From Spirochaetota bacterium (GTDB taxonomy: Bacteria; Spirochaetota; UBA4802; UBA5550), in assembly GCA_022709405.1 (NCBI GenBank), contig JAKLIV010000003.1:1883-65882 (forward strand): a stretch of 64,000 bases of DNA. The letters are read 5' to 3'. Below, piece after piece: positions 16,132-18,555 of this stretch. The stretch's first letter is position 1. Every line of letters begins with the position of its first letter. A program made the position numbers and the translations under genes. The notes beneath the pieces are model-generated. The model saw nothing but the letters and a program-made list of their open reading frames with translations, was not told the DNA's origin and made no database searches.

Positions 16132-18555
16132 TTAGTTGTTTGTTTTTTCTAATATGGGAATATATATAGCAATACTATTTTTTATTGTATTCTCATCATC
16201 CCTGGTTTCATTATTAATTATTTTGTAATGATCTTCATTATAATAATTGAAATCATCTGCAATTATCTGATTTTCCCATCTTTCCTTAAATAATTTCCTA
16301 TTATTGAAAATATATTTTCCCCTGCCTGATGTTTTGCTTTCAAAATGATATACTTTTGCTGAAGAAGTATAAAGTAATTTTTTATTAGTACTTCTTACCA
16401 GGCGCAAACAAAAATCAATATCTTCCTGACCATTTATAAATATTGAATCAAATCCATAATTATCTGCAAAATCTTTTGCTTTAACTGCCATACAGGCACC
16501 ACAGAGCGCTTTAAAGTTCCGGTCATAACTTGTATTAATTTCATCACTCGGAAATCCCTGGTAGATATTATAACCAATACAGGAATAATCAGAAAAAACA
16601 ATTCCTACAGACTGAATTGTATTATCTGGATAGATCAATTTAGGCTGGGTAGCTACGATTTCATTATCCATTAATAATGGCTTGATAAGATTTATTAACC
16701 AATTTTCCGTTACAATTGTATCGTTGTTTAAAAAAACCACAATATAACCAATTGAAAAAGAAAAACCAATGTTGCATCCTAAAGCAAAATTTAAATTTCT
16801 TTTATTGGTAATGACTTTAAAATTAGTTTTCTTTTTAAATTCAGGATCTCTAATTATATTTTTAGTATTTTGGTCACTTCCATTGTCTACAACAATAACC
16901 TCAAACTCAGTACCGGCAGGTGTATTATAAATAGATTCTAAACATTTTTTTGTTAATTCCGGCTGTCCATATATTGGAATTATAATTGATACTTTATTTT
17001 TATCACGATTCTTACTTTGTCTTTGCTGTTTTTCCCAATCTATCAATCGATGGTTTCTTAATGATAATTCATAATGAAGTTGCATATTATCATTAAAAAA
17101 TTTCTTATCTATATTCAGGTAACCCTTATTCAGAGCCTTTAATATCATTTTTTTTTGTTTATTTTTTTTTCTTTTTTTTAAAGCTGATTTCAAAAATATT
17201 TTTTCTTTATTATAATATTTTTTTATGTTATTTACTATTTTCTCCGGCAACAATGTGACAACTCTTCCCAATCTCCAAGTATAAGAATTTTTTAATGAGT
17301 CAATAACCTGATCCTTAGAATTAATAATTGCTATTACATTCTTTATCTGTTCATCCTTCTGCTTTATCTGTTCATCCTTCTGCTTTATCTGTTCATCCTT
17401 CTGCTTTATCTGTTCATCCTTCTGCTTTATCTGTTCATCCTTCTGATTTATCTGTTCATCCTTCTGATTCATCTGCTCAACCTTCTGATTCATCTGCTCA
17501 ACCTTCTGATTCATCTGCTCAACCTTCTGCTTTATCTGCTCAACCTTCTGCTTTATCTGTTCATCCTTCTGCTTTATCTGTTCATCCTTCTGCTTTATCT
17601 GTTCATCCTTCTGCTTTATCTGCTCAACCTTCTGATTCATCTGCTCAACCTTCTGATTCATCTGTTCATCCTTCTGCTTCACTCGAGTTGCAAGTTTATC
17701 ATTATTATCAACAATAGTATTTATTCTATTTTCCAGCCAAAAATAAAAATTTTCACCATATTCAGGGAATATATTACTAATTTTCAAACGCGATAGAATG
17801 CTTGTCATGTTTTTTTGAACATTATTCATGCCCATATACACTCCTTCTTCATGTATACGGTAAACAGACATTACATCCTTCATTAACTTTATTTTTTGTC
17901 TTTTGGAATTATGTGCCAGGGAAACAATTAAAAAAATATCTCCGAGCTTTAATTTATTATCAGACTGAAAATATTTATAATCTTCTTTTCTAAACATTAT
18001 TGATGCGGTAGGAATAAAATTGGTTGGATTTTCGATAAAATCATTAATATAATATATTTCTTTTTCTTCTGTTGGTTTATTGCTATATGTTTCTAATAAT
18101 ACACTGGTATTCATGTTCAATACTTTTGCATCGTGGCAACAAATTACATAGTCATCATTGGATTCTAAAAAATCAACCTGCTTCTGCAACTTTAATGGAT
18201 CAATCCAGTAATCATCCCCTTCACAAAGTGCCAGATATTTCCCCCTCGCCATGGGGAACACAAATTCGGCCATTGGTTTTTTCCCTTGTGAATATTGATT
18301 ATGAGTCTGGCAAATTGTCTTAATAATATCTGGATACTGCTCTTCATATTTTCTGATTATATCTGCAGTCCTGTCGGTTGATGCGTCATCATGGATTATT
18401 ATTTCAAAAGGAAAATCCGTTTTCTGCATGAGAAAACCTTCAATCGCATCACAAATGAATTTCTCATGGGTATAGGTGATACAGCAGACACTGACCAACG
18501 GATCACCGTTCATTAACCAGCTGTTCATTATTTCCTGTTCTGTCCTTAAGTACAC
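16132..18555 (-). CDS. Dual-domain GT2 glycosyltransferase with central heptad-repeat helical spacer
   Basis: N-terminal GT2: 'VSVCCITYTHEKFICDAIEGFLMQKTDFPFEIIIHDDASTDRT', 'LCEGDDYW'. Centre: 16 heptads of KDEQIKQ/KVEQMNQ. C-terminal GT2: 'VSIIIPIYGQPELTKKCLESI..FEVIVVDNGSDQ..VVFLNNDTIV'. The track start is GTG; ATG at 18528 is an alternative. Confidence 0.8.
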   Translation of the reverse strand: MYLRTEQEIMNSWLMNGDPLVSVCCITYTHEKFICDAIEGFLMQKTDFPFEIIIHDDASTDRTADIIRKYEEQYPDIIKTICQTHNQYSQGKKPMAEFVFPMARGKYLALCEGDDYWIDPLKLQKQVDFLESNDDYVICCHDAKVLNMNTSVLLETYSNKPTEEKEIYYINDFIENPTNFIPTASIMFRKEDYKYFQSDNKLKLGDIFLIVSLAHNSKRQKIKLMKDVMSVYRIHEEGVYMGMNNVQKNMTSILSRLKISNIFPEYGENFYFWLENRINTIVDNNDKLATRVKQKDEQMNQKVEQMNQKVEQIKQKDEQIKQKDEQIKQKDEQIKQKVEQIKQKVEQMNQKVEQMNQKVEQMNQKDEQINQKDEQIKQKDEQIKQKDEQIKQKDEQIKQKDEQIKNVIAIINSKDQVIDSLKNSYTWRLGRVVTLLPEKIVNNIKKYYNKEKIFLKSALKKRKKNKQKKMILKALNKGYLNIDKKFFNDNMQLHYELSLRNHRLIDWEKQQRQSKNRDKNKVSIIIPIYGQPELTKKCLESIYNTPAGTEFEVIVVDNGSDQNTKNIIRDPEFKKKTNFKVITNKRNLNFALGCNIGFSFSIGYIVVFLNNDTIVTENWLINLIKPLLMDNEIVATQPKLIYPDNTIQSVGIVFSDYSCIGYNIYQGFPSDEINTSYDRNFKALCGACMAVKAKDFADNYGFDSIFINGQEDIDFCLRLVRSTNKKLLYTSSAKVYHFESKTSGRGKYIFNNRKLFKERWENQIIADDFNYYNEDHYKIINNETRDDENTIKNSIAIYIPILEKTNN
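17338..17673 (-). repeat. 16 x 21-bp in-frame tandem repeat (two unit variants)
   Basis: The + strand units are CTGCTTTATCTGTTCATCCTT (KDEQIKQ) and CTGATTCATCTGCTCAACCTT (KVEQMNQ), in blocks totalling 336 bp. The + ORF 17328..17717 is its antisense artefact. Confidence 0.95.

What the first reader, a model, noticed from the sequence alone, without database searches (positions are those of the whole stretch)
17338..17673. Sixteen near-identical 21-bp repeats encode a heptad helical spacer between two GT2 domains: candidate length-tunable chain-length ruler
Seen:
- A 336-bp in-frame array (16 x 21 bp) is built from two unit types, KDEQIKQ and KVEQMNQ, arranged in blocks with almost no nucleotide divergence.
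- It sits exactly between an N-terminal GT2 domain ('IIIHDDASTDRT', 'CEGDDYW') and a C-terminal GT2 domain ('VIVVDNGS', 'FLNNDT') of the 807-aa ORF 16132..18555.
- It is followed by an 'SYTWRLGR' motif.

Established: in ABC-transporter-dependent O-antigen systems, coiled coils set polymer length as physical rulers. Examples are E. coli O9a WbdD and Klebsiella/Raoultella O12 WbbB, where the coiled coil separates polymerising from terminating modules.

Inference:
- This Q/K/E-rich heptad array (coiled coil or single alpha-helix) is such a spacer.
- Because it is a VNTR, slipped-strand or unequal recombination could change it in 7-residue steps. That would give heritable, switchable glycan length.
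- I am not aware of a described ruler encoded as a hypervariable tandem repeat.
Basis: partly seen in the sequence, partly recalled or inferred. Interest (0 to 1): 0.78.

Follow-up and report, generated by a model that had tools for sequence, protein, structure and literature searches.

The report
Variable heptad-repeat stalk in a sugar-chain enzyme
A gene for a two-headed sugar-adding enzyme from an uncultured spirochaete carries sixteen near-identical 21-base repeats that encode a long helical stalk between its two heads. Repeat content differs between otherwise identical genome assemblies, so the stalk may work as an adjustable ruler for the length of a surface sugar chain, an idea already shown for Helicobacter pylori enzymes.

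Summary
A 339-bp, 16.1-copy, 21-bp in-frame tandem array (17341-17679, minus strand) lies in an intact 807-aa ORF. It encodes residues 293-405, between an N-terminal GT2 domain and a conserved SYTWRLGR motif, a strongly basic amphipathic segment and a C-terminal GT2 domain.

The array is heptad-periodic, in register with its flanks over about 165 residues, and modelled as helix. The locus is a glycan island with a Wzt ATPase carrying a carbohydrate-binding module. The target is the only protein there with an extended coiled-coil-like segment, as in WbdD, WbbB and Klebsiella O7 ORF6 rulers.

Five independent assemblies have 0 mismatches in up to 22 kb of flanks but four array alleles (16, 16 with one unit converted, 6 and 4 units). 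The 6-unit allele could be a k=55 assembly collapse. The other differences are harder to explain that way.

Three unrelated lineages of the same GT2 family carry their own 21-bp or heptad arrays at the same position, one with 5, 7 and 8 units among close strains.

H. pylori FutA/FutB (catalytic domain, variable heptads, amphipathic anchor) are a published variable "enzymatic ruler". Verdict: new variant of a known kind. Ruler function is inferred, and no wzm is present in the window.

The parts
16132..18555 (-). 807-aa ORF with this layout: N-type GT2, heptad stalk, conserved motif, basic amphipathic segment, C-terminal GT2.
   Evidence: ORF list, Pfam and NCBIfam, and AF2 models. The ORF is intact in all five assemblies.
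17821..18501 (-). N-terminal GT2 (GT-A) catalytic module, aa about 19-245. It carries the DDAS and CEGDDYW motifs.
   Evidence: PF13641 matches aa 21-139. The PDB hit to TarS (5tze) covers aa 22-245. AF2 pLDDT is above 90 and fold matches are to SpsA, K4CP and TarS. The family has 7,472 representatives at E<=1e-30, mostly stand-alone enzymes of about 320 aa with basic C-terminal tails.
17248..17748 (-). Whole heptad-register stalk, aa about 270-436. At 1.48 A per residue this is about 25 nm in the 16-unit allele.
   Evidence: The register analysis gives d positions 23/26 hydrophobic and a positions 11/25 hydrophobic plus 10 Asp, unbroken from upstream of the array through the SYTWRLGR motif. 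AF2 models helices at 263-360 and 373-421.
17341..17679 (-). 21-bp x 16.1 in-frame tandem array, aa 293-405. Unit order is ABCDDDEFBBGGDDDD.
   Evidence: TRF and unit typing. Alleles in other assemblies are ABCDEDEFBBGGDDDD (L001), ABCDDD (L002) and ABCD (L003). Flanks show 0 mismatches.
17263..17286 (-). SYTWRLGR motif, aa 424-431. It belongs to a recurrent post-stalk motif, roughly S-x-[STK]-[WYF]-[RK]-[LI]-[GT], often followed within about 3-7 residues by P-[LF]-[RK].
   Evidence: The motif follows coiled coils, often at the extreme C-terminus, in P0015, P0046, P0051, P0063, P0064, P0068, P0075, P0098, P0113, P0221, P0229, P0255 and others.
17116..17280 (-). Basic amphipathic segment, aa 426-480. 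It is the putative membrane-proximal anchor or docking region.
   Evidence: The hydrophobic moment reaches 0.59 and the net charge reaches +10 per 18 residues. AF2 models helices at 437-458 and 465-478 with low pLDDT. The anchoring role is inferred by analogy with WbdD and H. pylori FucT C-termini.
16327..16995 (-). C-terminal GT2 module, aa about 521-743. It carries the VIVVDNGS and FLNNDT motifs.
   Evidence: PF00535 matches aa 523-664. The best PDB sequence hit is chondroitin polymerase K4CP (2z86) at E=5.5e-12.
23974..25392 (-). Wzt ABC-transporter ATPase with a C-terminal carbohydrate-binding module, in the same low-GC cassette.
   Evidence: PF00005 plus PF14524 Wzt_C at E=2.6e-21. Wzt with Wzt_C is also present in the loci of the two distant homologues that carry heptad arrays, and the PylC-like ATP-grasp gene sits immediately upstream of the GT in one of them (L010).
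15068..16117 (-). Downstream neighbour (349 aa) with a weakly PRTase-like N-terminus and a C-terminal KSRTYRIGK motif of the same type. It is fused to the N-type GT2 in P0005 and P0008.

Best explanation
The array encodes most of a long alpha-helical, probably coiled-coil, stalk of about 165 residues (about 25 nm).

**Proposed arrangement**
- The stalk holds the N-terminal GT2 module away from a membrane-proximal region.
- That region comprises the SYTWRLGR motif, a basic amphipathic segment and the C-terminal GT2 module.
- The protein belongs to an ABC-transporter-dependent glycan assembly system.

**Proposed mechanism**
- As in WbdD, WbbB, Klebsiella O7 ORF6 and H. pylori FutA/FutB, only chains long enough to reach the distal module would be acted on, either capped or decorated.
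- Stalk length would therefore set glycan size.
- Because the stalk is encoded by near-identical 21-bp units in heptad register, slipped-strand mispairing or unequal recombination adds or removes whole heptads (about 1 nm each). The frame and the register are both preserved, so the length is heritable and changes quickly.

**Shown:** the repeat, its frame and register, its helical prediction, the domain order, the locus context, array-restricted differences between assemblies, and recurrence in other lineages.

**Inferred:** coiled-coil oligomerisation, membrane anchoring, which module terminates, and any effect on chain length.
For: **Repeat and structure**
- The repeat and its frame are confirmed.
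- The heptad register is continuous with both flanks, with d positions 23/26 hydrophobic.
- AF2 models the region as helix in two alleles.
- The post-stalk segment is basic and amphipathic.

**Locus context**
- A Wzt with a carbohydrate-binding module is in the cassette.
- The target is the only extended coiled-coil-like protein among 37 island ORFs.
- Published work states that an extended coiled coil is the marker of this strategy, with the terminator at the distal end, and that changing WbdD coiled-coil length changes modal chain length (PMC11231755; PMC5082667).

**Variation confined to the array**
- Flank mismatches are 0/22,058, 0/12,307 and 0/3,371, while the arrays differ.
- The window and L001 differ by a concerted two-base unit conversion. 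The chance that both differences fall in the array is 2.3e-4 under uniform placement.
- These two alleles are k-mer incompatible above k=29 to 38.
- The 4-unit allele sits in a MEGAHIT k141 contig and is compatible with the 16-unit allele only up to k=31.

**Recurrence in other lineages**
- P0031 (L010) has a 21-bp array of 4.5 copies.
- The P0034 lineage has 5, 7 and 8 units in strains whose flanks are over 99% identical.
- P0221 has GT2, then 9 heptads, then an SSRSWK motif.

**Precedent**
- H. pylori FutA/B has the same module order and a proven link between repeat number and chain size.
Against: - No biochemical or read-level data are available.
- No wzm homologue is in the 64-kb window. 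The cassette also holds truncated-looking GT2 and methyltransferase ORFs and is flanked by toxin-antitoxin modules and an IS element, so the pathway may be incomplete here.
- Ten of 25 a positions are Asp, and the e and g positions are mostly Lys. This is atypical for a stable parallel coiled coil.
- AF2 pLDDT in the stalk is only about 55-88, with low-confidence breaks. Monomer models cannot distinguish a coiled coil from a single alpha-helix.
- The 6-unit allele (SPAdes contig, coverage 6.9) is exactly the minimal walk at k=55 and is k-mer compatible with the 16-unit allele up to k=73.
- Nothing identifies the N-terminal GT2 as a terminator.
- Candidate methyltransferase terminators without coiled coils also exist in the locus.
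Confidence: 0.5

Rival explanations
1. The array is a stable 16-unit helical oligomerisation or linker domain. The apparent copy-number variants (6 and 4 units) are short-read assembly collapses, so there is no natural length switching in this lineage.
For: - All flanks are identical, as expected if one clone was assembled several times.
- L002 is a low-coverage SPAdes contig. Its ABCDDD array is the shortest walk allowed at k=55 and is k-mer compatible with the 16-unit allele up to k=73.
- L003's ABCD array is the shortest walk at k<=31, and MEGAHIT starts at small k.
- The 16-unit form recurs in at least 3 assemblies.
Against: - At small k the array graph branches, so MEGAHIT unitigs should break rather than collapse. 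The final k of 141 exceeds the whole 87-bp array, so reads should span it (inference).
- The window and L001 arrays differ by a unit conversion that collapse does not explain.
- A second lineage shows 5, 7 and 8 units in arrays of 108-171 bp.
- The H. pylori precedent shows that such arrays do vary.
Confidence: 0.3
2. The stalk is real and may vary in length, but it has no measuring role. It only oligomerises or tethers two glycosyltransferase modules that act at unrelated steps (for example adaptor addition and side-chain decoration). Repeat expansion is neutral slippage tolerated by a structurally undemanding linker.
For: - Most family members are stand-alone GT2 enzymes of about 320 aa with only a short basic tail, so a stalk is not required for catalysis.
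- Only 3 other lineages among about 250 homologues examined have heptad arrays.
- The a-position Asp residues suggest weak packing.
Against: - The heptad register is kept through the flanks and d positions are invariably I or M, which argues for constraint on structure.
- Arrays have arisen repeatedly and independently at the same position.
- The arrays sit in loci whose Wzt carries a carbohydrate-binding module, where capping at a set length is the known logic.
Confidence: 0.25
3. The region is a single alpha-helix (SAH) or semi-flexible charged tether rather than a coiled coil. It could still act as a spacer, but as a monomer with different mechanics.
For: - KDEQIKQ units are 57% charged, with possible D-K and K-E salt bridges at i to i+4 and E-K and K-D at i to i+3.
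- Asp occupies a positions and Lys occupies both e and g positions.
- The array composition is Q 28%, K 24%, E+D 23%.
Against: - An unbroken I/M seam runs along every d position, and six of the 16 array units (the KVEQMNQ and KVEQIKQ types) have V at a and I or M at d. SAH domains normally lack such a seam (own knowledge).
- Known terminator stalks are dimers or trimers.
Confidence: 0.15
4. The gene sits in a decaying, horizontally acquired cassette and is no longer functional. The repeat would then be drifting.
For: - No wzm is present.
- GT2 and methyltransferase ORFs look truncated.
- Toxin-antitoxin modules, an ATPase and a transposase flank the 29-33% GC cassette, which sits next to 50-57% GC DNA.
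Against: - The 807-aa ORF and both catalytic motif sets are intact in five assemblies.
- Apart from one Asp-to-Val unit conversion in the array, the alleles differ only in array length.
Confidence: 0.08

Closest known systems
Helicobacter pylori alpha1,3/4-fucosyltransferases FutA/FutB (heptad-repeat "enzymatic ruler"; Nilsson et al. 2006, described in PMC2583950)
   Same: - The module order is the same: catalytic GT domain, then an in-frame 21-bp tandem array encoding heptads, then basic amphipathic helices.
- Repeat number varies in FutA/FutB (1-17), by slippage or recombination.
- The repeat region is proposed to dimerise and to set the size of O-chains that are modified.
   Different: - The catalytic family differs (GT10 fucosyltransferase versus GT2), so the two are analogous, not homologous.
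- The Fut enzymes decorate chains and have no second GT module.
- The repeat sequence differs (DDLRVNY; own knowledge). The pathway also differs, because the H. pylori O-antigen is not exported by Wzm/Wzt (own knowledge).
- A size effect is demonstrated in H. pylori and is untested here.
WbbB (Klebsiella pneumoniae O12 / Raoultella terrigena) and K. pneumoniae O7 ORF6: single-polypeptide terminator, coiled coil, polymerase GT modules
   Same: - The order is the same: N-terminal distal module, extended coiled coil, C-terminal GT2-type module or modules.
- The locus has a Wzt that carries a carbohydrate-binding module.
- The coiled-coil protein is unique in its locus.
   Different: - The terminators in those proteins are a GT99 beta-Kdo transferase or a methyltransferase-kinase, not a GT2.
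- The papers read here do not describe their coiled coils as encoded by near-identical tandem repeats or as varying within a strain.
- Only one C-terminal GT module is present here.
- No sequence homology of the stalk was tested.
WbdD (E. coli O9a/O8, K. pneumoniae O3/O5)
   Same: The layout is the same: catalytic head, coiled coil of about 20 nm, then a C-terminal membrane-associated amphipathic helix and partner-recruitment site. Insertions and truncations in the coiled coil shift modal chain length.
   Different: - The WbdD head is a kinase/methyltransferase.
- The polymerase WbdA is a separate protein.
- The trimeric state is known for WbdD and unknown here.
- WbdD is not a VNTR.
Dual-GT2 polymerases without a stalk (E. 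coli K4 chondroitin polymerase K4CP, P. multocida heparosan synthase PmHS2)
   Same: These are the best PDB sequence and fold matches for the GT2 modules, and they also have two GT-A modules in one chain.
   Different: In those enzymes the two modules are adjacent and alternate during polymerisation. Here the modules are separated by about 275 residues, including the stalk of about 25 nm, which argues against a simple alternating polymerase (inference).

Membership tests
Coiled-coil terminator/ruler proteins of ABC-transporter-dependent glycan assembly (WbdD, WbbB, K. pneumoniae O4 ORF7 and O7 ORF6) | The locus encodes the Wzm/Wzt ABC transporter. | tested here: inconclusive
   Two wzt genes are present (23974-25392 and 39525-40976). 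No wzm was found by Pfam in any ORF scanned, or by tblastn with the L010 Wzm. A DUF6077 membrane protein has a weak ABC2_membrane_3 hit at E=0.0025. Related loci L010 and L009 do carry wzm and/or wzt.
Coiled-coil terminator/ruler proteins of ABC-transporter-dependent glycan assembly | Wzt carries a C-terminal carbohydrate-binding module that recognises a chain-terminal cap. | tested here: met
   PF14524 Wzt_C at E=2.6e-21 on the cassette's Wzt. What the module binds is unknown.
Coiled-coil terminator/ruler proteins of ABC-transporter-dependent glycan assembly | One protein of the locus has an extended coiled coil. | tested here: met
   A heptad-periodic helical segment of about 150-165 aa is found only in the target among 37 ORFs, and AF2 models it as helix. 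Oligomerisation was not tested, and the a positions are half Asp.
Coiled-coil terminator/ruler proteins of ABC-transporter-dependent glycan assembly | [quoted passage not shown] | not testable with these tools
   The N-terminal GT2 is at the end of the stalk opposite the basic amphipathic segment. Its activity and acceptor are unknown.
Coiled-coil terminator/ruler proteins of ABC-transporter-dependent glycan assembly | Changing coiled-coil length changes modal chain length. | not testable with these tools
   This needs genetics and SDS-PAGE of the glycan.
Heptad-VNTR glycosyltransferase rulers (H. pylori FutA/FutB type) | An in-frame 21-bp tandem array encodes heptads between the catalytic domain and C-terminal basic amphipathic helices. 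| tested here: met
   The layout here differs in having an extra GT2 module after the amphipathic segment.
Heptad-VNTR glycosyltransferase rulers (H. pylori FutA/FutB type) | Repeat number varies among closely related cells or strains. | tested here: inconclusive
   Alleles of 16, 16 with one unit converted, 6 and 4 units occur with 0 flank mismatches. Collapse cannot be excluded for the 6-unit allele and is less likely for the 4-unit allele. A sister lineage shows 5, 7 and 8 units. No read-level data are available.
Heptad-VNTR glycosyltransferase rulers (H. pylori FutA/FutB type) | Homology to the GT10 fucosyltransferase catalytic domain. | tested here: not met
   Both modules are GT2 (GT-A), and no GT10 hit appears. 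The resemblance is analogy only.

The most novel reading that the evidence does not exclude
A widespread family of "stalked" GT2 enzymes, laid out as catalytic head, heptad stalk, SxSW[RK] motif and anchor, has repeatedly evolved 21-bp minisatellite stalks. In Wzm/Wzt pathways that export only capped chains (Wzt with a carbohydrate-binding module), these would act as contingency loci. They would switch the modal length or capping distance of a surface glycan in steps of about 1 nm within clonal populations. That would be the first natural, hypervariable version of the WbdD/WbbB ruler.
Probability: 0.3. Interest if true: 0.72.

Novelty: new variant of a known kind. Interest (0 to 1): 0.55.

Why it matters
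Coiled-coil rulers in ABC-transporter-dependent O-antigen synthesis were established by engineering heptad insertions and deletions. A natural locus where the ruler is itself a 21-bp VNTR, with alleles of 4 to 16 heptads on identical backgrounds, would be nature's version of that experiment.

It would also extend the H. pylori "enzymatic ruler" idea to another enzyme family, pathway and phylum (Spirochaetota). Glycan chain length could then be a rapidly switchable trait, relevant to phage, complement or predator evasion.

For metagenomics it is also a caution. The only differences between five assemblies of one strain lie in a repeat where assembler behaviour and biology give the same signature.

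Tried and rejected
**Searches that found nothing**
- Exact look-ups of P0121 and P0122 returned no contig, so their samples and assemblers are unknown.
- Hagelueken 2015 and Nilsson 2006 are not held in the library. Their content is cited second-hand from PMC5082667, PMC11231755 and PMC2583950.
- A literature search for 21-bp repeats or variable coiled coils in terminator proteins found nothing beyond H. pylori.

**Analyses with limited power**
- AF2 monomer models place low-confidence breaks at different positions in the 16-unit and 4-unit alleles. I treat these breaks as artefacts. The models cannot decide between coiled coil and SAH, and no multimer tool was available.
- The fold search returned only generic GT-A matches.

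**Ideas rejected**
- The + strand ORF 17328-17717 is not a gene; it is an antisense translation of the repeat.
- An internal repeat does not explain why both short-allele contigs end near 15.9 kb, because none was found.
- A simple alternating dual-GT2 polymerase like K4CP is unlikely, because about 275 residues including the roughly 165-residue stalk separate the two modules.
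Full report
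**1. Observation**

The window holds a 21-bp tandem array at 17341-17679. It has 16.1 copies, 95% matches and a score of 517, and is the strongest repeat in the 64 kb. It lies in frame on the minus strand in ORF 16132-18555 (807 aa) and encodes residues 293-405.

On the coding strand the units fall into two parental types:
- AAGCAGAAGGATGAACAGATA (KQKDEQI)
- AATCAGAAGGTTGAGCAGATG (NQKVEQM)

These differ at four nucleotides, which assort as three sites. Seven of the eight possible combinations occur. The order is ABCDDDEFBBGGDDDD, so the array consists of blocks with mixed-type units at and near the block boundaries.

Pfam places GT2 domains at aa 21-139 and aa 523-664, and only coiled-coil-type noise over aa 286-408. 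The SYTWRLGR motif is at aa 424-431. There are more than two unit types. The array is separated from the C-terminal GT2 by about 115 residues.

**2. Anatomy of the protein**

With Asp/Val set as heptad position a, the register runs unbroken from about aa 270 to about aa 436, through both flanks and the motif.
- The d positions are 23/26 hydrophobic (I or M in the array).
- The a positions are 11/25 hydrophobic plus 10 Asp.
- The e and g positions are mostly Lys or Asn.

AlphaFold2 with a 48-sequence alignment models the parts as follows.
- The N-terminal GT2 has pLDDT above 90.
- In the 16-unit protein the stalk region is helix at 263-360 and 373-421, with pLDDT about 55-88 and a break below 50.
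- In the 4-unit allele a continuous helix at 250-299 crosses the array.
- The breaks fall in different places in the two models, so I read them as monomer artefacts.

After the stalk comes a segment at aa 426-480 with a hydrophobic moment up to 0.59 and a net charge up to +10 per 18 residues. This is the signature of a peripheral membrane or partner-binding helix, although that role is inferred.

At 1.48 A per residue the stalk would be about 25 nm with 16 units, about 14 nm with 6 and about 12 nm with 4. Each heptad adds about 1 nm.

Both catalytic halves match ordinary GT-A GT2 enzymes (K4CP, SpsA, TarS/TarP, PmHS2).

**3. Context**

The gene sits in a 29-33% GC cassette (about 10.8-25.4 kb) inside a mosaic glycan island. 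The cassette and its surroundings contain:
- GT2 genes and methyltransferases
- a weakly PRTase-like neighbour gene
- a PylC-like ATP-grasp gene immediately upstream
- a formyltransferase and a DegT aminotransferase
- an FkbM methyltransferase
- a Wzt ATPase with a Wzt_C carbohydrate-binding module

A second wzt with a carbohydrate-binding module lies in the adjoining 50-57% GC block.

By a crude periodicity and charge scan, the target is the only one of 37 island ORFs with an extended coiled-coil-like segment.

No wzm was found in the window. Toxin-antitoxin modules and an IS256-family transposase border the cassette.

**4. Is the array variable?**

The protein database holds the same protein from other assemblies, with flanking protein sequence 100% identical.

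| Source | Contig | Array |
|---|---|---|
| Window | 64-kb window | 16 units, ABCDDDEFBBGGDDDD |
| P0121 (NCBI) | 76 kb | 16 units, same as window |
| P0122 (JGI) | 10 kb | 16 units, same as window |
| L001 (JGI 3300010429) | 149 kb | 16 units, unit 5 converted from D-type to E-type |
| L002 (ENA ERZ795054; NCBI "MAG TPA Spirochaetota bacterium") | SPAdes contig, coverage 6.9 | 6 units, ABCDDD |
| L003 (ENA ERZ27257455) | MEGAHIT k141 contig | 4 units, ABCD |

At the DNA level the flanks show 0 mismatches in 22,058 bp (L001), 12,307 bp (L002) and 3,371 bp (L003). Every difference lies inside the array.

The window and L001 differ by two linked bases that turn one unit type into another. The chance that both differences fall in the array is 2.3e-4 under uniform placement. 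This looks like intra-array gene conversion.

Short-read assemblers can collapse such arrays, so I asked up to which k each short allele consists only of k-mers that also occur in the 16-unit allele.
- **L002:** compatible up to k=73. ABCDDD is exactly the minimal walk at k=55, the usual metaSPAdes maximum. This allele may well be an artefact.
- **L003:** compatible only up to k=31, while the contig's final k is 141, which is longer than the whole 87-bp array. It is probably real but not proven.
- **Window versus L001:** incompatible above k=29 to 38.
- The longest exact internal repeat of the 16-unit array is 84 bp, so k>=99 assemblies can resolve it. This fits its recurrence in at least three assemblies.

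Both short-allele contigs end within 32 bp of each other in the downstream gene, and no repeat explains this. This may point to strain-level heterogeneity there.

**5. Comparative evidence**

The N-terminal GT2 belongs to a very large family, with 7,472 representatives at 50% clustering and E<=1e-30. Most are stand-alone enzymes of about 300-340 aa with basic, hydrophobic C-terminal tails.

Among about 250 homologues examined, three unrelated lineages carry their own heptad arrays at the same position.
- **P0031:** (QLSQTQA) x5. The DNA array is 21 bp x 4.5 copies at 97% matches.
- **P0034 lineage:** QLxQTQG units, with 5, 7 and 8 units in three assemblies whose flanks are 598-600/600 identical. 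The 5-unit allele is in a k141 contig.
- **P0221:** a 403-aa protein with GT2, then (xQxQTIE) x9, then a C-terminal SSRSWK motif.

The L009 and L010 loci again carry a Wzt with Wzt_C (L010 also has wzm) and DegT. L010 also has a PylC-like ATP-grasp gene directly upstream of the GT.

The post-stalk motif is roughly S-x-[STK]-[WYF]-[RK]-[LI]-[GT], often followed within about 3-7 residues by P-[LF]-[RK]. It recurs after coiled coils, often at the very C-terminus, in many homologues and in the window's own downstream neighbour.

The recurring design is therefore catalytic head, stalk of variable length, then conserved docking or anchor element. In the target and some relatives, further GT modules are appended.

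**6. Mechanism proposed**

Published work establishes three points.
- In Wzm/Wzt pathways whose Wzt has a carbohydrate-binding module, chains are capped by a terminator that sits at the distal end of an extended coiled coil.
- That coiled coil is "a characteristic marker" of the strategy.
- Lengthening or shortening the WbdD coiled coil (about 20 nm, trimeric) raises or lowers modal chain length (PMC11231755; PMC5082667; PMC3482155).

The target has the same logic and order as WbbB and Klebsiella O7 ORF6: distal module, coiled coil, then C-terminal GT2 module or modules.

I therefore favour (confidence about 0.5) that the stalk sets how long a chain must be before the N-terminal GT2 can act on it. 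The 21-bp repeat would make that distance evolvable in whole heptads.

The steps that remain inferred are oligomerisation, membrane anchoring, terminator identity and any phenotype. A gap of about 275 residues, most of it the stalk, between the two GT2 modules argues against a K4CP-like alternating polymerase (inference).

**7. Comparison with the known, and novelty**

H. pylori FutA/FutB have the following properties (PMC2583950 citing Nilsson et al. 2006).
- A catalytic domain, then 1-17 heptad repeats, then C-terminal amphipathic helices.
- Repeat number changes by slippage or recombination within a patient, during in vitro passage and in mice.
- Repeat number correlates with the size of the O-chains that are fucosylated, described as a "molecular ruler".

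The present case is analogous rather than homologous (GT2 versus GT10). It is a new variant in three respects:
- a different enzyme family
- a single-polypeptide layout of the WbbB / O7 ORF6 type, in a Wzt-CBM locus
- a different phylum

I found no report of VNTR-encoded stalks in the Wzm/Wzt terminator class. That is absence of evidence in an open-access library only.

**8. Verdict**

- The novelty claim is overstated.
- Novelty class: new variant of a known kind.
- Interest: 0.55. A natural length series of a glycan ruler would be valuable to the field. However, function is untested, the organism is uncultured, part of the copy-number evidence is confounded by assembly, and the concept has a 2006 precedent.

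Noticed in passing
window 13411-13472 (minus strand, ORF 12720-13535): A second in-frame tandem repeat lies in the same cassette. It is 15 bp x 4.1 copies and encodes (LESKP)x4 near the N-terminus of a GT2 protein. The copy number is identical in L001.
   Followed up: partly
window 15068-16117 (minus strand): The downstream neighbour (349 aa) has only sub-threshold PRTase similarity (PF00156 at E=0.0017; PDB 4z1o at E=0.004) and a DIDGV HAD-like motif. It also has a short C-terminal coiled coil ending in KSRTYRIGK, the same motif type as SYTWRLGR. It is fused to the N-type GT2 in P0005 and P0008. It may be a PRPP-dependent (ribofuranosyl-type) transferase like those in Klebsiella O4/O7.
   Followed up: partly
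window about 15910-15942; L002 and L003 contig ends: The two independent short-allele contigs (SPAdes and MEGAHIT) both stop within 32 bp of each other inside the neighbour gene. No repeat in the window explains this. It may be a strain-variable junction.
   Followed up: partly
window 23974-25392, 39525-40976 and 40977-43220: Two wzt genes with Wzt_C modules are present, but no wzm is anywhere in the 64 kb. A 747-aa DUF6077 membrane protein directly upstream of the second wzt has a weak ABC2_membrane_3 hit (E=0.0025) and might be a divergent permease.
   Followed up: partly
window 9511-10755 and 25410-29227: An IS256/Mutator-family transposase, HepT/MNT and AbiEii toxin-antitoxin modules and a DUF4143 AAA ATPase bracket the 29-33% GC cassette. 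The cassette abuts a 50-57% GC block of GT genes, so the glycan island is mosaic and probably horizontally assembled.
   Followed up: no
window 4528-5619, 20481-21584 and 21748-22869: A GDP-mannose 4,6-dehydratase, a DegT-family aminotransferase and a formyltransferase co-occur. This suggests an N-formylated amino-deoxy sugar (for example N-formylperosamine-like, as in Brucella; own knowledge) in the glycan.
   Followed up: no
P0221, P0031 (L010 8853-8947) and the P0034 lineage (L009 3881-4017, L011, L012): Independent heptad or 21-bp arrays with unrelated sequences (xQxQTIE, QLSQTQA, QLxQTQG) occupy the same position after the N-type GT2 in other organisms. The P0034 lineage has 5, 7 and 8 units among near-identical strains.
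   Followed up: yes
window 17328-17717 (+ strand): A 129-aa ORF (LSVHPSA...) is merely the antisense reading of the repeat and should not be annotated as a gene.
   Followed up: yes
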